Virus record (IMG/VR): IMGVR_UViG_3300028417_000005
Coordinates: 1-55,449 of that record
Origin: a virus
Lineage: Duplodnaviria; Caudoviricetes
Strand: one strand, 5' to 3'
Length of the DNA: 55,449 nucleotides
Of the stretch, positions 1 through 16,439 are shown piece after piece (the stretch's first letter is position 1; every line of letters begins with the position of its first letter). The notes below the pieces were generated by a model that was not told the DNA's origin, did not search any database, and saw only the letters and a program-made list of their open reading frames with translations. Both the position numbers and the translations under genes were made by a program.

Positions 1-144
1 GGATGCTCTATACCTTCGATAGATAATATAGCATCTTCATCTAATTGCTTAGATAGGCTATTGTATATCATAAAGTACTGTTTCGTGTTGTTCTTTGGTA
101 CTAAAATATTAGTTTTAAGTACATCATTACCAGCCATATAGTCA
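1..144. repeat. Terminal overlap with 55306-55449 (circular assembly signature)
   Basis: 1-144 equals 55306-55449 except for one synonymous mismatch (G at 18 vs T at 55323). The overlap lies inside the RNAP reading frame. Confidence 0.95.
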
Positions 145-386
145 ATTACAGCATAAATCTCTTTTTCTGTTATTTTTGTGTTGTTTTTTAGGCTATCTAG
201 AGTGTAAATCATAATAGCCTGTATAGTAGTTGGTTTTAGTAAAATAATCGTTTTAACAGCTATAGATATAGCTATTTCTTTCGCTGTTTTCTTATCTGTT
301 TTCAATAGATCGGATATAGCATCTACATCCTTACCCATCAACATATCTTCTAACATCTTTTTAATATTATTTTTTACCGTTTTCAT
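1..386 (-). CDS. N-terminal part of the single-subunit RNA polymerase, continuing across the junction into 53904-55449
   Basis: ATG at 386 follows an AAGGGA RBS. The open frame MKTVKNNIKKMLED... runs 83 codons to the ATG at 137, which corresponds to 55442. Total length is about 595 aa. Confidence 0.85.
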   Translation of the reverse strand, partial: MKTVKNNIKKMLEDMLMGKDVDAISDLLKTDKKTAKEIAISIAVKTIILLKPTTIQAIMIYTLDSLKNNTKITEKEIYAVIDYMAGNDVLKTNILVPKNNTKQYFMIYNSLSKQLDEDAILSIEGIEH

Positions 387-478
387 AATTTTCCCTTATG
401 ATTTATGCACTATATTAATAGTGCTATTTTTATGTGTTTTCACATAACTAATTAACTACTAACCTACCACAGATAAAA

Positions 479-1756
479 CTATTTTATATCATAAATATAC
501 TTATCTATATCTATGATATTTTTATAGCTCATTGTAGCTTTATCACATATGATAAAACTCTTTGGTTCTGTCATAGTTGGTATTACTACATAGTTTATTT
601 TATTGCTATATAGTAATACTTTCATAACAGTATTTATGCTGATACATTTTTTAAGATATACAATCTTTTTTCTATCTATTTTTAGTCTTAAAATGTATCT
701 AGCATTTTCCATTTCTCTATTGTTGCCTGAGAAGTGGAAAAGCTCTAAATATGAGATTATCTTTTTATAGTCATTTGACCATATGAAATAATTATTTCTC
801 TTATTTAATCTATCATCTGAGCCAACAATTTCTCGTTTGCTCAATATCGCATATTGTTTATCAGATCCAAGTTTAACTACATAGTCAATCTTTGGTTCTT
901 TATCTAAGATATATGATACATCGTCTATAAATAGGGGTGTATTTGATATATCTAGTACTCTATTTTCTATCTTTATGTTTCTTAGTATAGGTAACATAGT
1001 TTTAGATAGAGGTATGTGGTTTATCTCATTTGTTATTCTTTTGATAACATCTTTTACTAGCCCATCTAGTGTATTATCAAGTACACATATAAAACCATCT
1101 TTGTGAATAAATGGTTTATGTAGATGAACAAAACATCTAAGGTTTTTATTTAGGTTTAGCTTTTGGTTAAACCTAAAACTTGATGAATTGTATGGAGCCA
1201 CATTAATGCTTGTGGTTCTATCTTCAACATCATCTATTATGATGTATTTAAGAGATGGTTTCTCTTTTTGATTTAGATACTTATTCCATTTAGGATAGTA
1301 TTTAGATAAGTATATAAAACCATCTTGATTTGGTTCTAAATCTTTTAATGTTTTATACACTAAGAGTTCTTTTTCTCTTAGTATTTGTGATAGTATTTCT
1401 ATCTGTGCTAATAGATAGCTTTCTTGTCTGTCACCAACAAGAAAATCTACTATTATTTTTACTATTTTATGTACATAGTTTCTGTTATGTTTTAACAGGT
1501 TAGATGAAGTAAATAAATACTTGTTAAAGATGGTACTCTTAAGTCTATCTATTTTGATAGATAAGCCAAAATATCCCATCTCTTTGATGGAGTACTTTTT
1601 GTTGTTAATAACTATAGCATTTCTGCTTATTAGTATGTCTGTTTTATTGATATTTTGTACATCTTTTTTATGTACAAAATGTGTAGTGTTTGAGCTCTTG
1701 AGAGCCACTGCTAAGTTTACTAGGTTTTTCGGTGTGAAATTGTTTATGTATATCAT
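479..1756 (-). CDS. Hypothetical early protein, 425 aa, basic
   Basis: Long ORF with AAAGGA RBS; no motif recognised. Confidence 0.75.
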   Translation of the reverse strand: MIYINNFTPKNLVNLAVALKSSNTTHFVHKKDVQNINKTDILISRNAIVINNKKYSIKEMGYFGLSIKIDRLKSTIFNKYLFTSSNLLKHNRNYVHKIVKIIVDFLVGDRQESYLLAQIEILSQILREKELLVYKTLKDLEPNQDGFIYLSKYYPKWNKYLNQKEKPSLKYIIIDDVEDRTTSINVAPYNSSSFRFNQKLNLNKNLRCFVHLHKPFIHKDGFICVLDNTLDGLVKDVIKRITNEINHIPLSKTMLPILRNIKIENRVLDISNTPLFIDDVSYILDKEPKIDYVVKLGSDKQYAILSKREIVGSDDRLNKRNNYFIWSNDYKKIISYLELFHFSGNNREMENARYILRLKIDRKKIVYLKKCISINTVMKVLLYSNKINYVVIPTMTEPKSFIICDKATMSYKNIIDIDKYIYDIK

Positions 1757-1888
1757 AATATTTCCTTTGTGTAATTACATAAATTTAGTAGTTATGTAAT
1801 GGATTTAAATGTAACTAATGTTACAACGAAGTTTAAAAAAAAACAATACCAACTACAAAGGCTAGAGCCCGTGTAGAAGGTAGTTACA

Positions 1889-2074
1889 CTAGTCTAAAGA
1901 GATCTTGCGATCTTCTTTAGATTTTATTGTTGCACGAAGCTTCTTGCTCTTTAAGAAAGATACAAGATCTTCCATATCAACACCTTTAGCAGGGTTAACA
2001 AAACAGATGAGATCACCTGCTTTGTTCTCTACTGTTATGTAGTTTGTGTTTTCTGTTGAAGTTGTGTATGCCAT
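1889..2074 (-). CDS. Small early protein, 61 aa
   Basis: AAGGAAAC RBS directly upstream of the ATG; isolated by intergenic DNA on both sides. Confidence 0.7.
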   Translation of the reverse strand: MAYTTSTENTNYITVENKAGDLICFVNPAKGVDMEDLVSFLKSKKLRATIKSKEDRKISLD

Positions 2075-2401
2075 AATGTTTCCTTATATATTGAAAGTGA
2101 AGATTTAAATAAGATATAGTTATCTCAACTTGAATTTTAGCTCACTTGAGCAACTGAATTTGAACACCAATTTACAACAAAAACAGTAGCTCACTAGCTA
2201 AACTAATTACCACAGCTAAACACCTACTACAGGGCTCATAGCTACCTTGTATAGATGTTTTTGTTGCTCACTAGCTTTAGTATTACTTGTAGCCAGAAGT
2301 GCTCTTATAAGCAAGGTTATGAACACTAGACTGTCTGGCACTAAAAAAAACAAATAAAGAACCAGATAAGACATTTGTCTTATCTTTTGGTTCTAAATCT
2401 A

Positions 2402-4432
2402 TTAAACTAACATCTCAAACTTGTATCCTAGATGATCATTAGAGATCAATCTAGCTTTTTGGTTCTCTAGCTTGAACTTTAGAACCAAACTTAATGGCAC
2501 ATATGCCAAAGAACCAATATAGACTACCGTGGTTCTCTCTTCTATAATATCTTTATAGATAGGCATAGAAGCTAATGCTTCTGATATGGCTATCATATCA
2601 CCTCTCTCTTCCATATCAGATTTATAGTTAACTTTTATCTCGTACTCTGGTATAGAGTTAACACCATCTCTAACAGAGATGAACTCACCATCCATTACGA
2701 TGAGTTTGAACCCACTTTCCTTGGTTATTATCTTATGTATGTCTTTAACATACATATCAACTACTATGTAGTCTTTTCCTTTGTATGCCTCCTTTAAATT
2801 ACCTACATAGTCATTTAGCACGAAGTCACTATCTGCTTTCTTCATAGACGCAATATCTATGAAATAGTACTTACCACCAATCTTGTATCCAACTCTCTCT
2901 CTGAATACAATTGGATTATCTAAATCCACTATCATTGACAATATGTCAATTTTGAATTCTATATACTTTTTTGTCAACGAAGTGTCATACTCCCACTCAT
3001 AATTATATTTGCAACCATCAAAGACATACTTTTGTATGCCATTAGGAGTTTTAACTAAAGCAATCTCCTCTCCAAATGTGATTGCTTTTACTTCCCAGTT
3101 CTCCTCAATAACCTTAGTCAATATATCTTCTGTAATTTCGTGATTTGCATCCCAAAAGCTACAGAACCCAAACTCATTGGTTCTTTCTAAGACAATCTCT
3201 GTTACTCTCTTGTGGTTCTCATCTATTAGTTTATTTATAGATGATACATCATTCTCTAGTAGTCGCAGATACGCTCTTATAGCGTGTATTTTCTTATACT
3301 CTTTACTATTGTTTATGGCAATGATTGCATCCTTAGAACCAGATGCAAACTTGTTATATTTAACAGCATCTTGCCATTGATGTGTAGCTCCTTTGTCCCA
3401 ACTATCTATAACCCTTAGGTTATTATCTATGACATATTGAACATAATGTTCAACCCTGTCATCATTGGAACCAATCAGATTAATGGTCTGCTCTTTTTCA
3501 GCAAACTCTTCTGCAAAGAAGTCTTCTACCTCGTCGCAGAAGATCCCTTCTAGGCTAGTAACTCTAGCCGTAAAGCCAGAGTTGTGTATGAACACTATAT
3601 GTTCATCGTCTATTAAACCTTTAAGCTCATTTAAATTGAGACTAGGATCCCACTTCTGTGGATCTCCCTTCTTTGCTACTACATTAATACAGTAGTTGTT
3701 TTGGATCTCATCGAACCAAACAGCATAATATATGTCTGGCGTATCTGTTGTGTTAATAGCCTCCCTCCAATTCCTCTTGAAAGATTTAAAGCATACCATT
3801 TCTGTTATGCCTCTATCTTTGTTATCAGAGATACACTCTCTGATAATATCTATATCTTTATACCTCTCACTTCTGTTGTGAGCCACAATAGGCTCTAATA
3901 GTGTTTCTATGTACCGTATGCTACCTAGTACACTTCTGTCCCTTAGCACTTCAATGACATCTTTTAAGACATCATCGAAATACCTCCCAGCAGTTTGTGA
4001 CTCTTGCACAAACTTAATCAACAGCTCTGACAGCTCTACTATCTTGGCTGTCATTTTCTCCTTTAACGCCTCTTTGTCCCCACCAACATCGTGGGTTCCT
4101 ACATAGCGAGCTATGTCGAATAGCTCATAGTGTAATGGTATCCCTTCCAAAGAGAAGACATACTCTGCTACTAGGTGGCAAGCACCTAGCAACTCCTTGT
4201 CTTGATGATGATCAAACATCATCCTACTTGGATCATAGACGCCTCCTACATCTACTATTATATCAACCCCAAATATGATCCCCTCATCTCTGGTTCTTAC
4301 TATCGTGTAGTCTTTAACTACACCTCCCATATCTAGAAGTGCTATTGCTAGCACCTCATCACAATGGTATCCACCACTGTGTGTTGCTACTGTTGTTTTT
4401 GTACTACTTGAGTTTAAATTTACTACTGACAT
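2402..4432 (-). CDS. MYG1 (UPF0160)-family hydrolase/exonuclease with a long C-terminal extension
   Basis: Motifs THSGGYHCDEVLA, IVRTRD, DVGGVYDP..FDHHQ and FIHNSGF are typical of MYG1. Start moved to the ATG at 4432, which has an AGGAG RBS. Confidence 0.8.
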   Translation of the reverse strand: MSVVNLNSSSTKTTVATHSGGYHCDEVLAIALLDMGGVVKDYTIVRTRDEGIIFGVDIIVDVGGVYDPSRMMFDHHQDKELLGACHLVAEYVFSLEGIPLHYELFDIARYVGTHDVGGDKEALKEKMTAKIVELSELLIKFVQESQTAGRYFDDVLKDVIEVLRDRSVLGSIRYIETLLEPIVAHNRSERYKDIDIIRECISDNKDRGITEMVCFKSFKRNWREAINTTDTPDIYYAVWFDEIQNNYCINVVAKKGDPQKWDPSLNLNELKGLIDDEHIVFIHNSGFTARVTSLEGIFCDEVEDFFAEEFAEKEQTINLIGSNDDRVEHYVQYVIDNNLRVIDSWDKGATHQWQDAVKYNKFASGSKDAIIAINNSKEYKKIHAIRAYLRLLENDVSSINKLIDENHKRVTEIVLERTNEFGFCSFWDANHEITEDILTKVIEENWEVKAITFGEEIALVKTPNGIQKYVFDGCKYNYEWEYDTSLTKKYIEFKIDILSMIVDLDNPIVFRERVGYKIGGKYYFIDIASMKKADSDFVLNDYVGNLKEAYKGKDYIVVDMYVKDIHKIITKESGFKLIVMDGEFISVRDGVNSIPEYEIKVNYKSDMEERGDMIAISEALASMPIYKDIIEERTTVVYIGSLAYVPLSLVLKFKLENQKARLISNDHLGYKFEMLV

Positions 4433-4650
4433 AATTTCTCCTATGTCGTAAGATAAGTAATCATACTCATCTGGTTCTATATCCTGTCTATGCATATCAG
4501 GCGCAGCATTACATACAAGGAGAACCACCATTGGTTCTAATAGTTATGTAGTTTAGTGTATATCCCTCTATATGCCTATCATATAGAGCTATACATATAT
4601 AAACACTACTAGTAATGCTTGTATATGTATAGGATGGAGCAAGTGTGGCA

Positions 4651-5049
4651 CTAGCCACTACACCTCCTTTCAATATTATTCAGTTCTATATCATATGATG
4701 AAAACTCTTTAGTTATTTTGTTATAAGCCATTAGCTCATAAGCAATTAATAGATCCCAGCCTATTAATTGCTTGTCAAGTATTGCCCAATACTTGACATC
4801 TCTTGTTATATTTAATGTATAACCAAACGCTTCCGCGTGGTCTACTTCCATTCCAGACCAAGTGCATCTGTATATTATTATATCATCTGATATAGATGAT
4901 ATCGTATTGTTTAATACAATACGATCCTTTGGAAGACCGTGATGGTCTTCCTTCCATAATTCTATTATATTGTTGAAAATATCTCCAACAATATAGCCTT
5001 CATAAACTTTAAGTATTTTGTTTATTGTTTCTAAGTTAATTTGTTTCAT
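4651..5049 (-). CDS. Hypothetical early protein
   Basis: ORF track 4651..5061; a GGAG RBS favours the ATG at 5049. Confidence 0.6.
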   Translation of the reverse strand: MKQINLETINKILKVYEGYIVGDIFNNIIELWKEDHHGLPKDRIVLNNTISSISDDIIIYRCTWSGMEVDHAEAFGYTLNITRDVKYWAILDKQLIGWDLLIAYELMAYNKITKEFSSYDIELNNIERRCSG

Positions 5050-5365
5050 AATTATCTCCATTATGATTAACTAAGAACTAATGTTGGTTCTTAGTTGGTA
5101 CTGATAGCTATTAGCATAGCCAACTTGAGTTGTTAAGTTGCATTACAGCAACCACATATATATACCTACCAATGTAGATATGTATATATGGTTAATAGGG
5201 ACCAAAGATATATAACCTTTGGTCCCTATGTAATCACTATAAGCTAATCATAGCTATAGTGATTACAATAAATATCATACTACTCATAGTCAACTCCTTT
5301 GTTTTAATTTAAGAACCAAAGATCACCACAACCTTTGGCTCTTATCTTGTCTAGCTCACTAGGAC

Positions 5366-5437
5366 CTAAAGCCCTAGTTGCGCCAACAACTTGATGATCT
5401 CGTCTGTGAGATCATCTTCTATGATAATCGTGCTCAT
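5366..5437 (-). CDS. Putative 23-aa peptide MSTIIIEDDLTDEIIKLLAQLGL
   Basis: Strong AAGGAG RBS upstream of the ATG. Confidence 0.4.
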   Translation of the reverse strand: MSTIIIEDDLTDEIIKLLAQLGL

Positions 5438-5600
5438 AGTCTATCTCCTTCCTAAGTCTCTCCTCAGTCCAGCCTGTGTGGTAGGTACAGGTGACCTGCG
5501 AACCGATACAAGCAAGCGCGAAAGCATCCGCGAAAGCAACAAAGGCGAAGCCAAGCAAAGGAAGCCCCAAGAGCCCAGCAACAAAGCATTGAAGAAACAA
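5412..5600 (-). CDS. Possible small membrane protein in the A-poor island
   Basis: TTG start and hydrophobic N-terminal half; may be a compositional artefact. Confidence 0.35.
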   Translation of the reverse strand: MFLQCFVAGLLGLPLLGFAFVAFADAFALACIGSQVTCTYHTGWTEERLRKEIDYEHDYHRR

Positions 5601-5618
5601 ACGAGGCTACGCCTCGTT
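5600..5618 (-). terminator. Perfect 8-bp hairpin AACGAGGC-GTA-GCCTCGTT followed by a U-rich run on -
   Basis: Inverted repeat overlapping the stop codon of the 5607-5831 ORF. Confidence 0.4.
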
Positions 5619-5831
5619 AATTTCCTTCAACGCATCCGAGACCTCCGAGCGCACAGAGCGCACGAATCGAACCGAGCCGACAACCCCGCCAACGACCGAA
5701 GCCGTGGCAGACGAATCCGAAGGACCAGCGAACAAGCCGCCGAACCAAACAACAAGATACCAGACAGCCGAGCAGACAAGCGCCAAAGGCACAACGAACA
5801 ACAATAAAAGAGCAACAAAGAAATCCTTCAC
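5607..5831 (-). CDS. 74-aa membrane protein built from A-poor codons (MKDFFVALLLLFVVPLALVCSAVWYLVVWFGG...)
   Basis: GGGAGG RBS before the GTG at 5831. The few A residues fall in the RBS, the start region and a few K/D/E/I/N/Y/T codons, consistent with a real gene. Confidence 0.6.
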   Translation of the reverse strand: MKDFFVALLLLFVVPLALVCSAVWYLVVWFGGLFAGPSDSSATASVVGGVVGSVRFVRSVRSEVSDALKEINEA

Positions 5832-5968
5832 AGGAGACCTCCCAAAAGAAACAAGGCGAAACAACAGCCAAGCGCGAAGACCCAAGCCAAGCCGAAGCAA
5901 GGCGACAACGAACACCAAAGGAGCGAAGGAACCAACGGGAAGAAGGAACCAACACACCAAGCACAGTA

Positions 5969-5993
5969 GCGGAAAATGCGAAGCAATTTCCGC
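5969..5993 (-). promoter_or_regulatory. Candidate N4-type virion-RNAP hairpin promoter (template = + strand, leftward transcription)
   Basis: GCGGAAAATGC-GAA-GCAATTTCCGC contains a GC-GAA-GC triloop, with a C 11 nt 5' of the loop centre (5970) as in N4 early promoters. Confidence 0.5.
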
Positions 5994-6061
5994 AACGAGA
6001 AAAAACACAAGACAAGGGGAGGGGGAACCAAAAGACGGGGACAAAAAGACAGGCTAATACC

Positions 6062-6135
6062 TTCATACAAAATTATTATTATTATTTTCATACAAAATTA
6101 TTATTATTACCTTCATACAAAAACTTCATACAAAA
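6062..6135. repeat. Four direct repeats of TTCATACAAAA with (TTA)n spacers
   Basis: Copies at 6062, 6087, 6112 and 6125, at the point where gene polarity switches. Confidence 0.85.
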
Positions 6136-6269
6136 TTACACTCACACAACCCACACTATTGCTTATTTAGAACCACACATAGCTATGTTGATCTAGTTGT
6201 TTTGATTTGTTAATTGATTGTTTTGTTGATTATTTTGTTAAGAAGGTAGTAGTTTAAGATTCTTTTAAT

Positions 6270-7145
6270 CACCATACTGGTACAATTCTAACTTGTACCA
6301 GCAACACAAACTGGTGATAGTGGCTTCAAGGTAAGTGTTTAATCTTATCTTGAAGCCTCTTGAATACTTAAACTTCTAGCGATATTATATCGTTTTTAGT
6401 TTAATTATTCAAGGGCAAGTAGATTTTATCTACTATTCACTATCAATGAATTGTGCACACGATTGTAGTAGCTGATTATACGAGTTCTAAACTGCTAACA
6501 CTTAGGTGTTATTATGAAGCTTACTATGAGTAAAGTGGAGTCCTTAAGTAGGTAGAAATACCGAAAGAGAGGTGGTTAATAGCCACTGGGTAGGCGATAC
6601 GATGTAAGCAGATATGTTTACATTAGTTACCGTCGTGTTGGTTGATTATAACTCGCTAGTTTGTGCTAGAAAAGCAGAACCAACGAAGGAATGAGAGTGC
6701 CATACATCAATCATAATATTTGATCTGTATAGGCTATGTGTCTCCGTACGACCGCATATAGTAATAGTTTAACTTAGTACTCTTGATCAGATATGATCCA
6801 ATCTTCTCCTATACTTTTTAAACCTACACTCTAATAAGGGTGAAGGTCTATCTGCTCTTTAGTAGTAAATAGATTAGAACCACAACCAACAGATATCAAG
6901 TAGATATATCTTTCATCTCTCCCTCGTAACCTACTCAGCTCCGTCAGGGGCTGAGTGCAACTTAAGCTAACACTAGTTAACCCCATACCACCCACCCACT
7001 CCGTGGGGGGTATGTTGTATCACTAGCTTTTACTTATTTTTACTTTTATCTAGTTTGTTTGGTTCAAGGGAGGAACCAAACAAAGGTGTTGTGTTCACTA
7101 GTGTGAGCTTAGGTGCAATTAGGGGTTGACACCCCTAATTGGGGT
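6270..7145. other. Non-coding region dense in stem-loops
   Basis: No ORF of 60 aa or more. Inverted repeats near 6278-6301, 6322-6357, 6496-6511, 6551-6562 (GGTA-GAAA-TACC), 6934-6956, 7055-7084 and 7118-7140. Confidence 0.7.
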
Positions 7146-7195
7146 TCTTATTAAGTTTGTTTATGCTAAACTAATATATATCAAAAGGAGATATA

Positions 7196-8194
7196 TTGAA
7201 AAGATCTGAACAAAAAAGGATTGCTAATGCTATACCATTAGTTAATGCTTTAAGGTATTATTTATTACAAGATCCAAGTGATCCAAATAGAGATAGTTTA
7301 TCTCATATATATAAGATGTTTGGATGTACTCGTAGATCATTAGAGGAGTTATCTGCTTTTTGTAGTAGGTGTACAGATAACTTAGATAGTTTACTTGACT
7401 CACTTAGTAAGTATGAAGATATATATTTAGATGAAACTTTACATAAGAATCAAAGTAGTATGATTAAGTACCTGTTAAATAGATCTGAAGCTAATGGTGA
7501 TTGTGGTTCTTTTAAAATATTTATTAAAACAGATAGTGACCCAAGTGGTAAGTATTATGAATTTAGTGATAAAAGACAAAATTGTCATCTTGTTGTTAAG
7601 AGATTGAACCAAGATAATTTCCCACTTGAGATTATATCTGATACGCACTTTGATGATCCAGATCATATACCTAGGATTGATAAGAATACAAATAAGTTAA
7701 TTAGACTAGCTAAGTTCAAATGCCCAAGGTGCAATGTTATTAAAGAGTTGAGGTTATATAAATCACAACATCCTAAGTTTAGCACCTGTAATAAGTGTCA
7801 CTATGCTATTAGTGATAATGAAATAGAGAGATATAACCTAAATGATATATATGTTAAATATGCTAAGACTAGGGATATTAGATTAGGTATTGTTGGTTCA
7901 TCTATTACTAGTGATCCAGCATATAACAATTGTCATACTCTCTGTTGGTTCTCATATGTTTATGATCTATCTAAATATAATTTACACCCAGATGATAAAT
8001 GTAGAGAGGAGTTTGATAACAATATAGTTAATCTTTACACATCTGATAAGATAGATGACATTAGTAAGCTTAGTTGCTATATACTTGATGGGATATCAGA
8101 TGATGTGTGTAGAGCCAATGTTAACATAACCAAGTATGCATTTGATCTTCTTGTTAGTAGGAATGTATTACCTAGTAGATTAAATGTGGTATAA
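7196..8194 (+). CDS. Hypothetical protein with a CxxC..CxxC zinc ribbon
   Basis: AAAAGGAG RBS, TTG start, CPRC...CNKC; upstream TGcTAAACT extended -10-like box. Confidence 0.7.
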   Translation: MKRSEQKRIANAIPLVNALRYYLLQDPSDPNRDSLSHIYKMFGCTRRSLEELSAFCSRCTDNLDSLLDSLSKYEDIYLDETLHKNQSSMIKYLLNRSEANGDCGSFKIFIKTDSDPSGKYYEFSDKRQNCHLVVKRLNQDNFPLEIISDTHFDDPDHIPRIDKNTNKLIRLAKFKCPRCNVIKELRLYKSQHPKFSTCNKCHYAISDNEIERYNLNDIYVKYAKTRDIRLGIVGSSITSDPAYNNCHTLCWFSYVYDLSKYNLHPDDKCREEFDNNIVNLYTSDKIDDISKLSCYILDGISDDVCRANVNITKYAFDLLVSRNVLPSRLNVV

Positions 8195-8195
8195 T
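8187..8195 (+). promoter_or_regulatory. Extended -10 promoter element (TGgTATAAT)
   Basis: Lies 6 nt upstream of the ATG at 8202, suggesting a leaderless or short-leader transcript. Confidence 0.4.
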
Positions 8196-8201
8196 AACTA
8201 A

Positions 8202-8948
8202 ATGAAAAATATAGGTAATATGATAATTAATGATACATCTAATAGAGAAGATCTAACAGAAGATGATGTTAAGCGACTATTAGATGATAAGAAAGCTATA
8301 GTAACAAAAGATACACTTAAGCATATAAACAGTACAAACCAAGATCCACTCTTCTCAGACATATCATTTAGGAATGTGTTAATTGATTTCTCTGGCATTA
8401 GGAAAAAGAAGTCATCTAGTGTTATAGAGTATGTTAATGCCGTGAAGTATGTGGCTCTTATAGAGAGTAGGGTTAGTAAGTTTAATGCATACACCAGAGT
8501 GTTTGACTATAGGGAAATAGTTAAATATGGACTTCGTGATGGAAAAGGTAGTGATAACTGGGATAAGCTAGTTAAGTCATCTAATAGGTACGCTAACAAC
8601 CCACTAGTTGTAGAGATAATGAAAGCCAGTGACACTCCTCTTAGTATACTATACCAAGGTACAAGACATACTGCTGTAGAGGTGCTAGAAGATGAGATGC
8701 TTAATGCCAGCTCGTCTAGAGATAGAATTGAAGCTGCGAAAACTATACTTAAAGAGATACCAGCTCATATACAAGAGAAGGTTGAAGATAGTAGTGCATC
8801 TAATCAGGTTATAAATAATATACAGTTTATAAATCAACAACTATATCATAATGCAGAGAATCAACTCAAGATGCTTGAGAAAGGGTTTAATATTGAAGAG
8901 ATACAGAAATTGAATATAACCACTGAGAATAAGGCAATTGATGAGTAG
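8202..8948 (+). CDS. N4 gp69-like protein / putative terminase small subunit
   Basis: Directly upstream of terL; EYVNAVKYV..AYTRVF..AVEVL..M..A.S..R.EAA pattern resembles the N4-like homologue. Confidence 0.6.
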   Translation: MKNIGNMIINDTSNREDLTEDDVKRLLDDKKAIVTKDTLKHINSTNQDPLFSDISFRNVLIDFSGIRKKKSSSVIEYVNAVKYVALIESRVSKFNAYTRVFDYREIVKYGLRDGKGSDNWDKLVKSSNRYANNPLVVEIMKASDTPLSILYQGTRHTAVEVLEDEMLNASSSRDRIEAAKTILKEIPAHIQEKVEDSSASNQVINNIQFINQQLYHNAENQLKMLEKGFNIEEIQKLNITTENKAIDE

Positions 8949-10692
8949 TAATATAGTACCTATTGATGATGAAGTAGTTGAAGTAGATAACTTTACAATG
9001 GATGATCTACTTGATAATGTAGACTACTCATTTAAGAACTATACTCCATCAGTAGATGCTATTAACTTCTTCAACTTTATGCGTCTGGTTCTCGGAGAAG
9101 AACCAGAGAATAGTAATCCAACTGCACACTACTTCTTGATTGATACTATCTTTCAAAATGTTAATCCATTTGAATACTATGATATAAATACAACAATAGC
9201 TGATAAGAATTTTGTTGCTGTATGCGCAACTAGGGAGTTTAGTAAGTCTGTGCTTATAGGTACTATGTTACCTCTGTATATGGCATACTATGGAGAACTA
9301 CCAAACATAGGCAAAGTATCGTTTGGGTTCTATGTAGGTGCTAGCCTTAAAGGTGGTGTTAAACAGAGGATGAGAACTATAGCATCTGTATATGAAGATA
9401 GTATCTTCTTACAAGATAAATTTGAACGAGTTAAGTTTACAGATGAAGATGTTATGTTTATAAGACATCCTAAGCTCAATAAGGATGGTTCAATATCTAG
9501 CAAAGATAGTAAAGTTAGGAATAGAAAGTTTCATATGGTTGGGTTCGGTGTTAAGGGTGGTCCAAGGGGATCTGGTTCTGGATTAGATAGACCACAGTTT
9601 GGGATACTTGATGACTTGATAAAAACTGAAGTAGATAGTAGATCTAGTACTATATTATCTAACATATCGTCTATACTTGATAGTGATATTATGTATTCAC
9701 TACACGGATCAAAATCATTTTGTATTTTTATAGGTACTCCATTTAATCAAAAAGATCCACTATTAAAAGCTATCACTTCTGGTTCTTGGATGCCTGTAGT
9801 TTTTCCTATATGTGAAAAGATATCTATAGATATAACGAAAGATGATTTCTCTGGTGTATGGGAAGATAGACATAGCTATGAGAGGGTGTTGCTTAAGTAT
9901 AAGAAGAGTATACGAAATGGTAGTAAAAGATCTTTCCTACAAGAGCAGATGCTTAGAATAGCTGATGAGAGTAGTAGGATTATACCTGACAATTTAATTG
10001 CATACTTTTCAAGAAAAGATGTAATAAACAATGGTGAAAGTTATAATTGGGTTATAACAACTGACTTAACAACATCAGCAGGTGAGTATTCAGATCTAAG
10101 TGCTATAGGTCTATGGGCTGTGTCATCTAATAGTGATCTTATGCTAGTTGATCTCTTTTTACAGAAGGCTGAGATACTTGAGCAATATGATTTCATATTT
10201 GATATAGTTAGTAAGTATAAGAAATTCAGAGGCAATATATTATGTGGCATTGAGGTTGATGGTTCTCAAAGATCTCATATCTTCTCAATAAAAGAGATGA
10301 TGATTAAAAGAAAGCTACACTTTACAATAGCTATGCAAAAAGGATCAAGTAGAGAAGGTATCTTAAGACATAGTGTTAAAGGTGATAAGTTTGACTACTT
10401 CTTAAATGTGGTTCCATTGTTTCAAGCTGGTAAGATTATGTTTGCCGAGGAGCTTAAAAATACTAAAGCATTCAATGAATTATATGCAGAACTATCATAC
10501 ATAACTAATGAAGGTATTGGTTCTAAGAGAGATGATGGAATTGATATGATATCTCAGTTATCACAAATAAATATAATACCTCCATACTCTGATGATAGCG
10601 CAATACAAACGGTGTATAATAGCAGAGATGATATATGGGAAGAAAGGGATATGTCACACTATATGTTAGAAAACTCATCATATGTAGTGTAA
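8938..10692 (+). CDS. terL: Terminase large subunit
   Basis: Deviant Walker A REFSKS, RG...RPQFGILDDL Walker B, IGTPF motif III, nuclease acidic residues (TDL..., RDDGIDM). Confidence 0.9.
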   Translation: MMSSNIVPIDDEVVEVDNFTMDDLLDNVDYSFKNYTPSVDAINFFNFMRLVLGEEPENSNPTAHYFLIDTIFQNVNPFEYYDINTTIADKNFVAVCATREFSKSVLIGTMLPLYMAYYGELPNIGKVSFGFYVGASLKGGVKQRMRTIASVYEDSIFLQDKFERVKFTDEDVMFIRHPKLNKDGSISSKDSKVRNRKFHMVGFGVKGGPRGSGSGLDRPQFGILDDLIKTEVDSRSSTILSNISSILDSDIMYSLHGSKSFCIFIGTPFNQKDPLLKAITSGSWMPVVFPICEKISIDITKDDFSGVWEDRHSYERVLLKYKKSIRNGSKRSFLQEQMLRIADESSRIIPDNLIAYFSRKDVINNGESYNWVITTDLTTSAGEYSDLSAIGLWAVSSNSDLMLVDLFLQKAEILEQYDFIFDIVSKYKKFRGNILCGIEVDGSQRSHIFSIKEMMIKRKLHFTIAMQKGSSREGILRHSVKGDKFDYFLNVVPLFQAGKIMFAEELKNTKAFNELYAELSYITNEGIGSKRDDGIDMISQLSQINIIPPYSDDSAIQTVYNSRDDIWEERDMSHYMLENSSYVV

Positions 10693-10727
10693 TAAAATTT
10701 ATTAATAAAAATCAACTAAGGTAGTAT

Positions 10728-11315
10728 ATGTTTACTGTTAAAGATGTCATAATACTAGCTAAGAATAGTGACCTTAGAAAGGTTGCCGTAAGAGATGACG
10801 ATAGTGTAATATTGCAATATATAAACCTAGCAGTTATAGAGCTGTATAGAAGATTTAATATTAAGACAAAGCAGTATGATATTGATATACTGCCAACTCA
10901 AATAAAATATACTATACCAGATGATGTTGCATATATAGTTAAGGCATATGATGTAAATGATAAGCCTATTAGTATCAACAACGAAGATGATAAATTTGGC
11001 ATAATGACTGATACATATAATAGTATTCAATATGTAAATCATAATGATAATACTAAGCTTAAGCTGTTATGTAGTGTTACTCCAGATAGATTAGTTAATA
11101 TCAATGACAAGGTACCACTACCAGACACATATATAGAGGCTGTGCTTAATTATATTGGGTATAAGGCTCTAGGGTCTATTAATGGTAATGTTGATGCTGA
11201 GAACAACACACACTACACTAGATTCATTATGTCTTGTAAGAATCTGAGAACATCAGGTGCTACTCATACTAACTACAGAGAAGTAAATAATTTTGAGAAT
11301 AGAGGGTTTGTATGA
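10728..11315 (+). CDS. Head-tail adaptor / N4 gp67-like virion protein
   Basis: INLAVIELYRRF motif and position after terL. Confidence 0.6.
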   Translation: MFTVKDVIILAKNSDLRKVAVRDDDSVILQYINLAVIELYRRFNIKTKQYDIDILPTQIKYTIPDDVAYIVKAYDVNDKPISINNEDDKFGIMTDTYNSIQYVNHNDNTKLKLLCSVTPDRLVNINDKVPLPDTYIEAVLNYIGYKALGSINGNVDAENNTHYTRFIMSCKNLRTSGATHTNYREVNNFENRGFV

Positions 11316-12637
11316 GAAGGATCTTATCTATACAAGATAATCAACAAGAGTATAAAGAGATAAAAGATATAGAGACGACAAATGCAAACGCAGAACCAAC
11401 AATAGTTGACATTGTCAACAATGCAACAGTATATTCATCTGATGGTTCATCAAGTAAAATCAGAGATCATTTAAATGTTGATGCATTTGTAATAATAGAT
11501 CAGTATATAGAACATAATTCACAACAACACTTTATAATGTTAGAGCCAATGATCATTGATGAGAATGGAGATGAGTTCAGAGGTGGTTCTTATAATATAA
11601 TATCAAACTCATTTAAACTGTTCCAAAACAAGTTCATAGTTAAATCTGGTGTTATATTAACTGCTGGTTCAGAAGATATAACAATAAATTACCATACAAT
11701 TGGTGGTCAACAGATAAGCAAAGTATTTACCGTAGCAATTATCGACTCAGCATCATCTACAATTGCTACATCAAATAAGATAGATAAAACTAAATTAGCT
11801 TGGTCAAATTATGGTGAGCCATTATTTACTATAGATCAAGCTAGTAGTAATTACGCTGTCATCTTCTCACATAGAAGAGGTGCTGATTCAAATGGAGCAC
11901 AACACTTAGGTGGCTTAAGTGTATTTAAAAATGATTTATGGAGCTACAGTAAAGAGTGGATACTTAATAGAGGATCTGATAAATATGATTTCTTGGTTCA
12001 AATAATAGGCGTTAGCAAAGACGCACTAGATAACACCGTATATGAATCTGCTAGTATGTTATGGGAAGATGTAACCAATTGCCCAGCAACCACTACTCCA
12101 CCTCCATCTAGTGGTGGTAGTTTTAGGTACCTAGATGGTGAAGTGTATATGTGCCAATATAAAGATGGTAGTGGTTTGGTTCCAGAAAACTCTGAAGGTA
12201 ATAGATGGGATTGGTTTGTTGCTATGGGATGGGATGGAGCAACCAATAGCGATAAGACTGGATACTTATTCCAGACATCTCCTCCAGTAGAGTTGTATAA
12301 ATTAGTTGTAACATATAATGCCACATCTGGTGGATATGATTATCAAGTTATAGAAGAGATGACTGCATATGCAACTCAAGCAGTAGTTGATGCAGGAGTT
12401 GGTGAAACAACTGTGTACGCTCCTAAAGGGTCTGTATTTAGAGCATATGATCCAATAACTAATGATTGGGCTGATGTTCCTCCAACCGCAACAGATAATA
12501 TATATTACGATAAATATATATATCAAAGTGAATATGTAAGTACTGTAGATGGAGATGGTGATATGGTCCAAATAGCATACCCATCAAATCCAGCTAGTTT
12601 TATAGAGATGCCAATAGCTGTAAATATCAAAGCGTAA
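11312..12637 (+). CDS. Putative virion structural/tail protein
   Basis: Long beta-rich ORF in the tail module, translationally coupled to the upstream gene. Confidence 0.5.
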   Translation: MRRILSIQDNQQEYKEIKDIETTNANAEPTIVDIVNNATVYSSDGSSSKIRDHLNVDAFVIIDQYIEHNSQQHFIMLEPMIIDENGDEFRGGSYNIISNSFKLFQNKFIVKSGVILTAGSEDITINYHTIGGQQISKVFTVAIIDSASSTIATSNKIDKTKLAWSNYGEPLFTIDQASSNYAVIFSHRRGADSNGAQHLGGLSVFKNDLWSYSKEWILNRGSDKYDFLVQIIGVSKDALDNTVYESASMLWEDVTNCPATTTPPPSSGGSFRYLDGEVYMCQYKDGSGLVPENSEGNRWDWFVAMGWDGATNSDKTGYLFQTSPPVELYKLVVTYNATSGGYDYQVIEEMTAYATQAVVDAGVGETTVYAPKGSVFRAYDPITNDWADVPPTATDNIYYDKYIYQSEYVSTVDGDGDMVQIAYPSNPASFIEMPIAVNIKA

Positions 12638-12662
12638 CTTAAACAATAAGGGAAAAGTATAT

Positions 12663-12923
12663 ATGAAAACAGTAACAGCTAGCAAAGAGGTTGATGTAAC
12701 ATTCAATAGGTCAATTGATGGCAACAGGCTTGAAGTGTTAAACTTTAAAAATGGAATAAATAAAAGTGGGTATGAGGTTAGGTTCTCACTAAATAACTTT
12801 GCTTCATCATCTGGTCAACTTTGGGAGAATGATCAATTCCTAACCTTCCCAGCAAACACAACTGTATATGTAGACTTCAATGGTTTTAATAATGGTAAAG
12901 TACTAGTAAGGGATGGATCGTGA
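12663..12923 (+). CDS. Small hypothetical tail-associated protein
   Basis: AAGGGA RBS; overlaps the tailspike start. Confidence 0.55.
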   Translation: MKTVTASKEVDVTFNRSIDGNRLEVLNFKNGINKSGYEVRFSLNNFASSSGQLWENDQFLTFPANTTVYVDFNGFNNGKVLVRDGS

Positions 12924-14887
12924 GTGATACAATAGATTTTGGTTCTGGTTCATCTGGTGGCGGTGGAGGTGGATTACCAACTCCTTTGCCAGTTGGTATA
13001 ATGGTTGACAAGGGAAATCACGATATAACTACTGGACTTCCAACAAATGTTGAAGCTGGGTTTTTTTATACAGTTGGCGGTACTGCTACAATTGGAGGAG
13101 TTGAGCTAAACAGCGGTGATAATCTTATCGCTATAACAGATAGTGCAACTCCAGCGATAACAGGCTTTAGAGTTATTGACAATACAGAAGCAGGTGACAT
13201 ACTAAGAGATAGTGATGTAACAGGTATACCGACTGGCTTTACTGATAGCAATAAGCTACCAAAAAAGATAACTGTATCGGCTATGTTGGCGATTGCTATA
13301 AGTGAGCACGAAAACTTTAAACATAGCGACTACATAAGAAAGTTTGAAAGTTTTGGAGCTGATAATACAGGAGTGCAAGACTGTACTCTGGCAGTTAATA
13401 GTATGTTGAACAAACTTAATACGGATGGATTCTTAGTTTTAGATCTAGGTAAAAAGTCTAATATCTTTAAGATACAGCAAGAGATAGAAGTCAATGTAGG
13501 GGACTGTTTGATTATAGTAGGGTACGGTACTCTCAAAGCTAGTGATACTATGAGCGGAGCAGGTTTACATAGTAATGTTATACATGTAAATATACCAAAC
13601 TTCTACTGCAAAGATATCACGATAGACGGCAACAGAACAGCGAGAGGTACAACCGTTGGTTCTGCTAGCCATTGTTTGACATACAGAGAGAGATGCGTTA
13701 AGTCTATTGTAGATAATGTAACTATTTATGATGCTCCATTGGACTGTATAGCTATGTCTGCATATAGCGGAGATCCAGCTAGCAGGAACATAACTATACA
13801 AAATTGCGCACTTAGTAATTGGAAGAGATCTGCTATATCTATACTATGGGGATATGATATCAATATCGTAAATAACAAGATGGATAACTCTGGCGTAACT
13901 GATAATATGGGATATGCTATAAATCTTGAACCAAACTCTTCCCCACTTGATATGAGTGTTGCCAACACAATAATCACACAAAATAAGATTAAACATAGCT
14001 CTGGTTGGTTAATGCACGGCAAGAAAACAACAGGTAGTTATTTGACTGGAGATCTTGACAAAGATGTCAAAAATGTATTGATATATGACAATATAGTTGA
14101 TTGTGATGGATATATCTTTGATGGAACTGAATATATGTTCAATTTCAACAACTGCACAAATGTTAAGATGCACAATAATGTTGTGACAAATTTCACAAAC
14201 AGCTCAAGAATGTTTAACTTCAACAATGCCTACGGTATAGATATTGAAGATAATACTATTCTTGGTGATGGTGATGGTGTTATGTTCTACGGCTTAGCTG
14301 AAGGCATCAAAATCAAAGGTAATAGGTTGAAGGGTGGTTTTGTTGGAGTCACGCTATTGTCAACATCTACTGAAAACACATTTGATGATAACTACTTCTA
14401 TGAGTTAAAATCACACGATGATAACAGTATAGATATTGATTTTAAAAACAACAAGCACATTAATAAGATTGAGCCATTAGTCCAAACTAGGTTTGATGGA
14501 ACTGGTGCAATGATTGATAATAATAGGTACAATGGACTGTGCTCAACTGGATGGAACCCCGTTATCTACGCCAACGGTATAGACTCTACCGTTACAAACA
14601 ATAGAGGCAAGCTAACTTGTTTAACTGCTACAAGCAAGAGAGTGTTCAGAACTAGAATGCCAGCCAAGAGAATTAGCGGTAATGATATCGAAATACTAAA
14701 TAACAACGGTAATCCAGATAGTAGGTTTGAAGTTGTTGTGCCAAGCGCTGATCCTGTAACTGGTGTTGTAACATATTCAACAATAAACGCAACTACAATC
14801 TTCTCAAACGCTGAATGTGATGACACAATCATAAATGATAATAGGATTAAGATAAATGCTGTTATTAAAAACATAAAGAGAGTATAA
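12920..14887 (+). CDS. Tailspike with a parallel beta-helix (pectate-lyase-like depolymerase)
   Basis: FGADNTGVQDCTLAVN entry motif followed by many N/I/V-rich beta-helix repeats. Confidence 0.8.
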   Translation: MSDTIDFGSGSSGGGGGGLPTPLPVGIMVDKGNHDITTGLPTNVEAGFFYTVGGTATIGGVELNSGDNLIAITDSATPAITGFRVIDNTEAGDILRDSDVTGIPTGFTDSNKLPKKITVSAMLAIAISEHENFKHSDYIRKFESFGADNTGVQDCTLAVNSMLNKLNTDGFLVLDLGKKSNIFKIQQEIEVNVGDCLIIVGYGTLKASDTMSGAGLHSNVIHVNIPNFYCKDITIDGNRTARGTTVGSASHCLTYRERCVKSIVDNVTIYDAPLDCIAMSAYSGDPASRNITIQNCALSNWKRSAISILWGYDINIVNNKMDNSGVTDNMGYAINLEPNSSPLDMSVANTIITQNKIKHSSGWLMHGKKTTGSYLTGDLDKDVKNVLIYDNIVDCDGYIFDGTEYMFNFNNCTNVKMHNNVVTNFTNSSRMFNFNNAYGIDIEDNTILGDGDGVMFYGLAEGIKIKGNRLKGGFVGVTLLSTSTENTFDDNYFYELKSHDDNSIDIDFKNNKHINKIEPLVQTRFDGTGAMIDNNRYNGLCSTGWNPVIYANGIDSTVTNNRGKLTCLTATSKRVFRTRMPAKRISGNDIEILNNNGNPDSRFEVVVPSADPVTGVVTYSTINATTIFSNAECDDTIINDNRIKINAVIKNIKRV

Positions 14888-15018
14888 TGGATATTGGTGA
14901 AAAGCTAGAGGATATGGGTTTTGATGGTTCTAAGATATCATCATATGTAGTGTATGCCTTTTGTGGCATAGCATTATTAACCGCAATTGCTATAACAATA
15001 ATAGGAGCTAGACTATGA
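14887..15018 (+). CDS. 43-aa single-TM protein
   Basis: Hand translation MDIGEKLEDMGFDGSKISSYVVYAFCGIALLTAIAITIIGARL; overlaps both neighbours. Confidence 0.5.
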   Translation: MDIGEKLEDMGFDGSKISSYVVYAFCGIALLTAIAITIIGARL

Positions 15019-15212
15019 GAAAATTCGTAGGTAAGAATGAACTAGATGAAGGTGAGAAGCCAATCAGCTTATTGACACTAAAAGATTATGAGTTAATGGA
15101 TATAATCAATGACTTAACTAGAGATGGGTATGAGCTATCTGCTGGTGATAGAGATCATATGTTTGATCAGCTATCAGATATCTATGACTATTATGTAGAA
15201 GTAGAAGTATGA
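15015..15212 (+). CDS. Small acidic hypothetical protein
   Basis: AGGAG RBS; ATGA coupling to neighbours. Confidence 0.6.
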   Translation: MRKFVGKNELDEGEKPISLLTLKDYELMDIINDLTRDGYELSAGDRDHMFDQLSDIYDYYVEVEV

Positions 15213-15733
15213 GATATTTAATATATATAGCAATATCATTGTTCTTAGTTGGTTGTGGAATATTAAATAACACAACTGTTGTTCAAGATAATAGGACTAC
15301 TGATGTCAACAACTCTATTGATGTTAATACTACTGTGGATATAAACAACACTACAGTGGTCATAATCAATAACAATAAGACATATAGAGTTATTGACGGC
15401 GATGGTTCATTTGATGATCCTTATGAACTTAAACAAGCACGATACGGCAGACTGAATGGTAAGCAATGGTTTATAACTCCGTACATAGCTTATATGAACT
15501 GTAGTATCAACCTATATGCTGAGAGTGGTATGTATGAACTAACACCTCTGAACGATAGCTTTATCCCCCTTGAATATAGCTGTATCAACTATAGAAGAAG
15601 TTGTGCTATTGATGCCAATAACACACAATGGATAATGGTTAGGATTGGGGTTCTTGATGTCAACGGATCAATAGCTGTTACAGGTGAGTGCTTGAATAAG
15701 CCTATTTTTAATGCTAAAAGGTTTTGGGAATGA
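15209..15733 (+). CDS. Lipoprotein with multiple D-x-N-x-S/T sequons
   Basis: Signal peptide II with LVGC lipobox; DVNNS, DVNTT, DINNT, DANNT and DVNGS. Confidence 0.75.
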   Translation: MRYLIYIAISLFLVGCGILNNTTVVQDNRTTDVNNSIDVNTTVDINNTTVVIINNNKTYRVIDGDGSFDDPYELKQARYGRLNGKQWFITPYIAYMNCSINLYAESGMYELTPLNDSFIPLEYSCINYRRSCAIDANNTQWIMVRIGVLDVNGSIAVTGECLNKPIFNAKRFWE

Positions 15734-16140: not shown

Positions 16141-16439
16141 TGTTAGAATATCTAGATAGCAATAGCTATAACATCTTTATGTTTAAGATGATACTGCTCA
16201 CTTATTTAAGTGTATTAGTATTTAAATTTAAACTATGGAAGAGAAGCATAAGCACAACAATTATATTAATATCATTTGCTGTCAGTACTGTGTTTGAATA
16301 CTATGGATTATTATATATGTCAGATATTATCATACTATCCGCAATTACGCTATTGGTAGTAAGAGGCACTACTAAACACGATAACGATGTATTGTTTAAG
16401 ATGCCAAAAAAGTTTAACAGAAGGAGCACAGATGCTTAG
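16140..16439 (+). CDS. Membrane protein (holin/antiholin candidate)
   Basis: About three TM segments and a basic tail. Confidence 0.45.
   Translation: MLEYLDSNSYNIFMFKMILLTYLSVLVFKFKLWKRSISTTIILISFAVSTVFEYYGLLYMSDIIILSAITLLVVRGTTKHDNDVLFKMPKKFNRRSTDA

What the first reader, a model, noticed from the sequence alone, without database searches (positions are those of the whole stretch)
5500..6054. Thymine-depleted strand island at the probable first-transcribed genome end
On the + strand T falls to about 4% over 5641-6054, and the segment is GC- and CpG-rich, in a genome that is otherwise AT-rich. The - strand transcript is therefore nearly A-free, yet it encodes an RBS-led membrane protein using F/V/L/S/G/A/R/W codons. 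The island abuts the polarity switch and the repeats at 6062, where an N4-like genome end is expected. Hypotheses: avoidance of palindromic or adenine-methyl restriction sites in first-injected DNA; avoidance of thymidine-directed ssDNA modification (DarT-type) on the vRNAP template; resistance to A-specific RNases; or transcription needing little ATP during genome entry.
Basis: partly seen in the sequence, partly recalled or inferred. Interest (0 to 1): 0.78.

Follow-up and report, generated by a model that had tools for sequence, protein, structure and literature searches.

The report
Thymine-free leader of an N4-like phage
About 560 bases at the early-gene end of an N4-like vent phage are written almost without thymine on one strand, with the few thymines sitting where a promoter hairpin or a codon needs them, perhaps so that the first DNA to enter the cell offers host defences no target sites.

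Summary
T is 3.6% over 5641-6054 against 33% in the window (z = -11), with a 126-nt T-free run.

It is not an artefact. An independent run holds 5885-6087 with 2 differences. The island also shares the genome's avoidance of GGCC and CCGG.

The window is an N4-like phage with a vRNAP, an RNAPII-like gene and N4-like portal and TerL. By synteny the island sits where the N4 left, first-transcribed end lies.

Anatomy:
- A + strand hairpin at 5966-5996 has a core identical to the template strand of N4 early promoter P1. It holds all five T's of 5841-6054.
- Leftward follow a leader, an RBS, a GTG-started 74-codon ORF and a terminator. Only 3 of the ORF's 19 A's are synonymously avoidable.

All six frames are open here, so ORF length and hydrophobicity are weak evidence. 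The depletion also covers about 60 nt upstream of the hairpin and the stretch beyond the terminator. That points to a constraint on the DNA, not the RNA.

My best guess at the reason, about 35%, is a leader free of target sites for restriction systems. The physical genome end was not mapped, and no equivalent was found in 190 related loci.

The parts
5490..6054 (.). Strand-asymmetric island: + strand A 41%, C 29%, G 25%, T 5.5%. It has a sharp right edge and a gradual left edge.
5966..5996 (+). Hairpin on the T-free strand with 12 pairs, two A.A mismatches and a GAA loop centred at 5981. Its core TGCGAAGCA is identical to the template strand of N4 early promoter P1. It is the candidate vRNAP promoter for leftward transcription. 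It holds all 5 T's found between 5841 and 6054.
   Evidence: literature
5994..6054 (.). T-free stretch upstream of the hairpin loop. It would not be transcribed if the hairpin is the promoter.
5844..5970 (-). Predicted leader of about 127 nt with no codon periodicity in any frame. The start near 5970 (template C, 11 nt from the loop centre) is an inference.
5838..5843 (-). Shine-Dalgarno GGGAGG, 6 nt before the GTG start. It contains the only A of the sense strand between 5829 and 5966.
5607..5831 (-). ORF-B, 74 codons plus stop, GTG start. It has a hydrophobic N-terminal half and a charged C-terminal tail. It is an ORFan.
   Evidence: periodicity chi2 24, p 5e-4; 3 of 19 A's avoidable, against 8 and 11 in the other frames
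5590..5624 (-). Terminator-like hairpin (8-pair GC-rich stem at 5600-5618) followed by a T-rich tail. The ORF-B stop codon lies in its loop.
   Evidence: -10.3 kcal/mol, z -5.9
5518..5551 (+). Cluster of mini-hairpin words on the T-free strand: GCGAAAGC twice and GCGAAGC once. It lies 433 nt downstream of the first GCGAAGC. It may be a second promoter, but the stems are only 2-3 pairs and this is unresolved.
5412..5600 (-). ORF-C candidate of 62 codons with a TTG start. Its A-poor first half lies in the island. Coding status is uncertain.
   Evidence: (p 0.31)
6055..6142 (.). Four direct repeats with core TTCATACAAAA that abut the sharp island edge. Function unknown.

Best explanation
The island is the leading segment of an N4-like phage genome. 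It holds an N4-P1-type hairpin promoter for the virion RNA polymerase on the T-free template strand, then a leader, one small GTG-started gene and a terminator, all read leftward.

The whole roughly 560-bp segment has been purged of T on the + strand, which means A on the sense strand. This includes about 60 nt upstream of the promoter and about 110 nt beyond the terminator. T survives only where function needs it: in the promoter stem, the Shine-Dalgarno, unavoidable codons and the stop codon.

I take the purge to act on the DNA. A duplex with no T on one strand cannot contain:
- any palindrome that includes A or T;
- any Type I style motif that needs an adenine on both strands;
- any inverted pair of an A-containing asymmetric site;
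- any -10 or -35 like box.

The first roughly 500 bp to enter the cell, which wait there until the virion polymerase pulls in the rest, would then offer no target.

What is shown: the composition, the hairpin and its match to N4 P1, the placing of the T's, the genome-wide site avoidance and the synteny. What is inferred: that the hairpin is a promoter, that ORF-B is translated, that this end enters first, and the reason for the purge.

My odds: anatomy about 0.75, selection at the nucleotide level about 0.9, the site-free-leader reason about 0.35.
For: Identity and position:
- N4-like identity and gene order: vRNAP phrog_2206 E 3e-56, RNAPII-like and replication genes on the minus strand, portal and TerL 34-39% identical to N4-like phages.
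- In N4 the first 500 bp enter before transcription (review passage).

Promoter hairpin:
- As ssDNA it folds at -9.9 kcal/mol, and 0 of 200 shuffles fold as well.
- It is the only GCGNAGC on the + strand with a long flanking stem.
- N4 record positions 93, 562 and 4551 carry GCTTCGC or GCTCCGC on the sense strand. N4 P1 is therefore GTTGCGAAGCAAC on the template strand.
- The literature gives a GC-rich heptamer centred at -11, with -8G, -10G and -12A on the template strand.

Placing of the T's:
- There are 25 T's in 5600-6054.
- 5 are paired in the hairpin and 1 is in the Shine-Dalgarno.
- 19 are in ORF-B, of which 16 cannot be removed synonymously.

Site avoidance:
- Outside the island: ACGT 0 (expected 162), GGCC 0 and CCGG 0 (36 each), CATG 9 (162), TCGA 29 (162).
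- In the island: no 6-mer palindrome against 18 per kb elsewhere.
- In the island: GGCC plus CCGG 0 against 5.07 in dinucleotide shuffles, with 0.4% of 2000 shuffles at 0.
- No sigma-70-like site falls in the island.
- Principle: in Autographiviridae a Type I motif in the first-injected region decides sensitivity (abstract of PMC12455610).
Against: - The physical terminus is not mapped.
- The rest of the genome copes with its host's 4-cutters without being T-free, so the extreme solution needs a further reason, which I can only guess (variable Type I or III specificities).
- The island keeps 5 GCGC and 3 CGCG, as expected from its composition. It also holds words rare elsewhere, such as CCGA 10 times.
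- ORF-B looks like a small membrane protein, not a known anti-restriction protein.
- No equivalent island was found in 190 TerL-related loci or at the left ends of N4 and LUZ7. It is therefore not a family trait.
- The hairpin stem is longer than the 5-7 pairs of N4, and the predicted start would lie inside it.
- There are no RNA data.
Confidence: 0.35

Rival explanations
1. Strand labelling for the N4-type promoter mechanism. The T-rich, A-free non-template strand attracts host SSB. The A-rich, T-free template strand binds it poorly and stays free, with its mini-hairpin, for the virion polymerase. The weak rU:dA hybrid also eases release of the transcript.
For: - In N4, SSB melts the non-template hairpin, leaves the template hairpin intact and displaces the transcript (review passages).
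- The asymmetry flanks the hairpin on both sides.
- GCGAA occurs 9 times on the T-free strand against 2.5 expected.
- That SSB prefers dT over dA is recalled, not from a call.
Against: - N4 and LUZ7 use this mechanism without any such skew.
- 560 bp is far more than an SSB footprint.
- The T-free strand is no less structured than the genome average: -31.8 against -34.3 +/- 7.3 kcal/mol per 420 nt.
Confidence: 0.15
2. The island is the direct terminal repeat, and the asymmetry serves a repeat function. One possibility is clean annealing of the complementary single-stranded tails in concatemer formation. Another is a step in repeat duplication or cutting at packaging.
For: - The T-free core, about 455 bp from 5600 to 6054, is as long as the repeats of N4 (390-440 bp) and near those of LUZ7-like phages (632-665 bp). 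In LUZ7 the annotated repeat holds the first genes, and in N4 gp1 starts at 154 within the 390-440 bp repeat.
- The composition edge at 6054/6055 is sharp, next to repeats.
Against: - No evidence of repeat boundaries or doubled depth; contigs cannot show it.
- Known N4-like repeats show no such skew.
- Predicted self-structure is ordinary.
- This reading is compatible with the best explanation rather than opposed to it.
Confidence: 0.15
3. The constraint is on the RNA. An early mRNA almost free of A escapes A-requiring endoribonucleases or toxins or A-to-I editing, or can be made with little ATP.
For: - The sense strand of the predicted transcript has 21 A's in about 380 nt.
- Synonymous A's are avoided in ORF-B.
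Against: - About 60 nt upstream of the promoter hairpin have no T on the + strand at all.
- The stretch beyond the terminator (5490-5590) has 6 T's in about 100 nt.
- The downstream early genes have normal A content.
- Translation would need ATP and GTP anyway.
Confidence: 0.1
4. Avoidance of thymidine-directed modification of single-stranded DNA (DarT type) on the template strand that the virion polymerase reads.
For: The template strand is the T-free one, and the N4 mechanism exposes it as single strand.
Against: - The other strand is 41% T and would be just as exposed.
- Only 560 bp of the early region are protected.
- No data on such a system in the host.
Confidence: 0.05
5. Assembly chimera or foreign insert without function.
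For: - It is a single metagenomic contig.
- GC jumps by 20 points.
Against: - A second assembly of the probable source run spans it.
- An independent study's run holds 5885-6087 with 2 differences, joined to the repeats.
- The island shares the genome's avoidance of GGCC and CCGG.
- Its signals are correctly oriented for the neighbouring genes.
- No normal genome has such composition, and there was no match beyond chance-sized 20-57-nt pieces to the island body in 301 genomes of one class.
Confidence: 0.03
6. The + strand encodes a basic, disordered protein (117-aa ORF, 5704-6057).
For: The frame is open.
Against: - Every frame is open here.
- There is no periodicity (p 0.16) and no RBS.
- The orientation opposes the hairpin, the terminator tail and the neighbouring genes.
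- No family match.
Confidence: 0.03

Closest known systems
Early promoter P1 and the left end of coliphage N4
   Same: - Template-strand hairpin with a GAA loop and the same 9-nt core.
- G at -8 and -10, C at -9, A at -12.
- Template C 11 nt from the loop centre.
- A small first gene downstream.
- A second GCGAAGC 433 nt on, where N4 has P1 to P2 at 469 nt.
- The same place in the gene order.
   Different: - N4's left end has ordinary base composition.
- The stem here is 12 pairs with two mismatches instead of 5.
- ORF-B has no likeness to N4 gp1.
Leading, first-injected regions of T7-like phages and Type I restriction (PMC12455610, abstract read)
   Same: The idea that only motifs in the DNA that enters first decide restriction, and that this region is shaped by it.
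   Different: There single motifs are lost. Here a whole base is removed from one strand. The phage family and entry motor also differ.
Restriction-site avoidance in phage genomes (PMC6286503, seen in the search listing only)
   Same: The genome-wide loss of ACGT, GGCC, CCGG and CATG is the classical form.
   Different: Classical avoidance removes specific words. The island removes a letter, which excludes whole classes of words.
Strand bias of Type III sites in T7, and ACA-less mRNAs that resist MazF (both recalled, no call)
   Same: Asymmetric or letter-poor sequence as protection.
   Different: Those concern one motif each. Nothing there approaches a 126-nt run without one base.

Membership tests
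N4-type virion-RNAP hairpin promoter | Hairpin on the template strand with a 3-nt loop whose central base is a purine | tested here: met
   GAA loop centred at A5981 on the + strand, which is the template for the leftward genes. Criteria come from passages.
N4-type virion-RNAP hairpin promoter | GC-rich heptamer centred at -11, with -8G, -9C, -10G and -12A | tested here: met
   GCGAAGC at 5978-5984. It is the same heptamer and the same flanking T and A as N4 P1 on its template strand.
N4-type virion-RNAP hairpin promoter | Stem of 5-7 pairs (N4) or at least 4 pairs (LUZ7) | tested here: inconclusive
   The stem is 3 pairs, an A.A mismatch, 7 pairs, an A.A mismatch and 2 pairs. It is longer than any described, and the predicted start lies inside it.
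N4-type virion-RNAP hairpin promoter | Transcription starts 11 nt (N4) or 13-14 nt (LUZ7) from the loop centre, and the cognate vRNAP recognises the hairpin | not testable with these tools
   Template C at 5970 fits N4. No RNA run was listed.
Schitoviridae-like (N4-like) phage | Giant virion RNA polymerase gene | tested here: met
   3117-aa ORF at 27890-37243, phrog_2206, E 3e-56.
Schitoviridae-like (N4-like) phage | N4-like portal, TerL, major head protein and second RNAP, in N4 order | tested here: met
Schitoviridae-like (N4-like) phage | Direct terminal repeats of 0.4-0.7 kb that hold the first promoter | not testable with these tools
   Only contigs could be laid, not reads. IMG/VR classes the record as linear without end repeats, and CheckV puts it at 67% complete.
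Site-free leading region (anti-restriction by sequence) | The genome is under measurable selection against restriction sites | tested here: met
   ACGT 0 of 162 expected, GGCC 0 of 36, CCGG 0 of 36, CATG 9 of 162.
Site-free leading region (anti-restriction by sequence) | The segment lacks sites beyond what its composition gives | tested here: met
   GGCC plus CCGG 0 against 5.07 in shuffles, P 0.004. No 6-mer palindrome. GCGC and CGCG are not avoided.
Site-free leading region (anti-restriction by sequence) | The segment enters the cell first, and its site content changes restriction | not testable with these tools
   Inferred from synteny and from N4 biology only.

The most novel reading that the evidence does not exclude
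A phage has written the first half-kilobase of its genome in a three-letter alphabet per strand. That DNA cannot carry any A/T-containing palindrome, any two-strand adenine-methylation motif or any inverted pair of asymmetric sites. This would be a generic, specificity-independent shield for the DNA that waits in the cell before the virion polymerase pulls in the rest. It still encodes a promoter, a gene and a terminator with the minimum of the forbidden letter.
Probability: 0.3. Interest if true: 0.85.

Novelty: new variant of a known kind. Interest (0 to 1): 0.72.

Why it matters
If the purge is an adaptation, it shows a kind of defence evasion that works at the level of the alphabet rather than of single motifs, and it marks which DNA a phage treats as most exposed.

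It would give a sequence signature for finding leading ends in uncultured phages. It would also give a natural test case for how much function (promoter, gene, terminator) fits into three letters.

It also extends the N4 hairpin-promoter core to a distant, AT-rich relative from a hydrothermal vent.

Tried and rejected
Searches for the same DNA or the same kind of island:
- DNA searches of the island and of 1-20000 against the phage collection found no match.
- Rfam on 4500-7500 gave only sub-threshold microRNA-like noise.
- No tRNA in the window.
- Single-protein searches for relatives of the 332-aa ORF and of TerL in viral contigs found none.
- A TerL alignment then gave 80 loci in viral contigs, 80 in metagenome contigs and 30 in genome contigs; some are duplicates between collections. 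None has a comparable island.
- The next outliers that I opened are low-complexity coding. L003 is a Gly-rich repeat, L046 an acidic domain and L174 a K/A-rich start. L176 and L188 are runs of N. The other outliers were not opened.
The wider survey is therefore not done.
- Exact searches in viral contigs: a 34-mer from the island found nothing. The 17-mer hairpin core gave 8 hits, all in ordinary composition, as many as chance predicts.

ORF-B:
- No homologue by word search.
- One hit by full HMMER, to a 564-aa protein in 7 stretches, which I read as a low-complexity match.
- No Pfam family above cut-off.

Other searches:
- Island DNA against 301 genomes of the class of a Sulfurimonas-labelled MAG gave weak hits (42 of 301 genomes, 45 matches, best E 4.8e-6). 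Most lie in the AT-rich repeats at 6056-6140; 8 are 20-57-nt pieces in the island body.
- GCGNAGC hairpins were not found in 8 related loci.
- Earlier findings of this scan: nothing.
- Literature searches for a thymine- or adenine-free phage segment found nothing relevant. Supplements were not seen.

Sequencing runs:
- No RNA holder was listed.
- In run X2 the bin 5613-5813 has no cover and 5412-5612 little. This shows nothing either way.

Rejected idea:
- That the T-free strand is specially unstructured. Its folding energy equals the genome average.

Full report
**1. The observation**

The window is a whole IMG/VR virus record of 55,449 bp. It is classed as linear, and CheckV puts it at 67% complete.

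- On the + strand, T is 3.6% over 5641-6054 and 5.2% over 5500-6054, against 33.2% overall.
- The lowest 400-nt T window of the record lies at 5645. No other base drops comparably.
- For 300-nt windows z is -11.1.
- The longest T-free run is 126 nt. No dinucleotide shuffle of the window (0 of 100) contains a 120-nt T-free run.
- GC is 53.6% and CpG observed/expected is 1.10, against 0.35 for the window.
- The right edge at 6054/6055 is sharp and abuts four direct repeats. The left edge fades between 5490 and 5600.

**2. It is part of the phage, not an artefact**

- A second assembly of the probable source run spans 3000-9000 without a difference.
- A run from another study holds 5885-6087 with 2 differences, 6065-7101 with 1, and the flanking genes with about 3.6% divergence.
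- In that second run, a 7313-nt contig has 162 letters beyond 5451 that do not fit the window. A 308-nt contig has 99 such letters before 5885. The middle of the island therefore seems to differ between strains.
- The rest of the genome has no ACGT, GGCC or CCGG, where 162, 36 and 36 are expected. It has only 9 CATG.
- The island, although GC-rich, also has no GGCC or CCGG. Dinucleotide shuffles give 5.07, and only 0.4% of 2000 shuffles have none. A foreign insert would not share this habit.

**3. What kind of genome this is**

- The 3117-aa ORF matches the virion RNA polymerase family.
- Portal and TerL are 34-39% identical to N4-like phages. The major head protein and other late genes follow on the + strand.
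- Primase, helicase, a Sak4-like protein and an N4-like second RNA polymerase lie on the minus strand at the right of the window.
- In N4 the early genes run from the left end, and the late genes, with TerL close to the right end, run the other way.
- Read on this map, the window crosses the junction of the two ends. The island sits at the start of the leftward early genes.
- The source is a hydrothermal vent metagenome. The nearest TerL in genome bins carries Epsilonproteobacteria and Sulfurimonas labels, which is only a weak hint at the host.

**4. Anatomy**

All six frames are open in the island, because neither strand can form a stop codon. ORFs therefore prove nothing by themselves.

*The hairpin*
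- As single-stranded DNA, the + strand is nearly structure-free except for two hairpins.
- The first, at 5966-5996, has 12 pairs, two A.A mismatches and a GAA loop. Its energy is -9.9 kcal/mol, and 0 of 200 shuffles fold as well.
- It contains all five T's that occur between 5841 and 6054.
- Its core, TGCGAAGCA, is the same as the template strand of N4 promoter P1. I located P1 in the N4 record at 93-99, with P2 and P3 at 562 and 4551.
- The literature passages I read describe a GC-rich heptamer centred at -11 on the template strand, with -8G, -10G, -12A and a central purine. They give GCGGAGC for P2. In LUZ7 the start is 13-14 nt from the loop centre.
- Here the + strand would be the template, so transcription would run leftward. 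A template C lies 11 nt from the loop centre, at 5970.
- The stem is longer than any described, so the exact start is open.

*The transcription unit*
- About 127 nt follow without codon periodicity (p about 0.7).
- Then come GGGAGG, a 6-nt spacer, and a GTG-started ORF of 74 codons at 5831-5607.
- This ORF has clear periodicity, with G at 48% of first positions (chi2 24, p 5e-4).
- Of its 19 A's only 3 could be removed synonymously, against 8 and 11 in the other frames.
- Its stop codon lies in the loop of a terminator-like hairpin with a T-rich tail.
- The product has no homologue.
- Its hydrophobic half is only mildly more hydrophobic than random translations of this composition. 3.4% of random translations reach its value.
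- I put its translation at about 70%.

*Downstream*
- A cluster of two GCGAAAGC and one GCGAAGC lies at 5518-5551. This is 433 nt downstream of the first GCGAAGC, much as P2 lies 469 nt from P1 in N4.
- Their stems are only 2-3 pairs, so I leave them open.

**5. The constraint is on nucleotides, and on DNA rather than RNA**

- Of the 25 T's in 5600-6054, 5 pair in the hairpin and 1 is in the Shine-Dalgarno.
- The other 19 lie in ORF-B, where 16 are forced by the amino acid or the stop codon.
- Third codon positions hold 4% A in ORF-B, against 33% in TerL.
- The high GC and CpG follow from this. The 27 A-free codons force CGN for Arg and NCG or GCN choices.
- The depletion covers about 60 nt upstream of the hairpin and about 100 nt beyond the terminator, where 6 T's remain.
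- A purely RNA-level cause therefore does not account for it, unless another start lies further upstream.

**6. Why**

I cannot test the reason, so I rank the candidates.

*Site-free leader, about 35%.* This fits most observations.
- The genome is under extreme pressure from restriction systems.
- The island has no 6-mer palindrome, against 18 per kb elsewhere. It has no sigma-70-like site.
- By logic, a T-free strand excludes every A/T-containing palindrome and every motif that needs adenine on both strands.
- In N4 about 500 bp enter first and wait for the polymerase. The island is 565 bp.
- In T7-like phages the motif content of the first-injected region decides Type I restriction (abstract).

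*Against it:*
- The rest of the genome manages without this device.
- GCGC and CGCG are tolerated.
- No relative shows the same island.

*Rivals:*
- Strand labelling for SSB and the hairpin mechanism.
- A role as the terminal repeat, whose usual length it matches.
- An A-free mRNA.
- Avoidance of thymidine modification on the template.

The idea that the strand is specially unstructured is rejected. Its folding energy is the genome average.

**7. Verdict**

The feature is real and very unusual. Its anatomy fits an N4-type first early transcription unit. The reason for the missing base remains an inference.

Searches of the held literature found no description of such a segment. Supplements were closed.

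Noticed in passing
window 1-55449 outside 5490-6054: Extreme avoidance of short palindromes: ACGT 0 (expected 162), GGCC 0 and CCGG 0 (36 each), CATG 9 (162), TCGA 29 (162). CpG is at 0.32 of expectation in all contexts. GATC is not avoided (195 against 162). This suggests a host rich in 4-cutter restriction systems.
   Followed up: partly
window 6143-7195: About 1 kb without a convincing ORF between the repeats and the first late gene. It is almost identical (1 difference in 1037) in a run from another study, whereas the neighbouring genes differ by about 3.6%. Strong hairpins with T tails lie at 7054-7084 and 7116-7141.
   Followed up: no
window 4658-5057 and 5198-5313: In the second run's contig, the gene at 4651-5061 is replaced by 453 other letters and 114 nt (5199-5312) are missing. 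The early region is mosaic between strains.
   Followed up: no
window 5195-5267: Two adjacent perfect 13-nt inverted repeats (5195-5229 and 5229-5267) and a 16-codon hydrophobic ORF with an RBS just upstream. They lie in the early intergenic stretch.
   Followed up: no
window 2402-4531 (-): A 709-aa early-side protein whose residues 47-112 match the first 66 positions of the MYG1 exonuclease family. The rest has no match.
   Followed up: no
proteins P0025, P0027, P0075, P0093, P0094, P0104: Several TerL relatives are about 940 aa and carry PF14528, which probably marks an inserted homing-endonuclease or intein segment. The window's TerL has none.
   Followed up: no
L003 1120-1420; L046 15900-16300; L174 4040-4230: The strongest single-base-poor stretches in related phages are ordinary low-complexity coding: a Gly-rich repeat protein, an Asp/Glu-rich N-terminal domain and a Lys/Ala-rich start.
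   Followed up: yes
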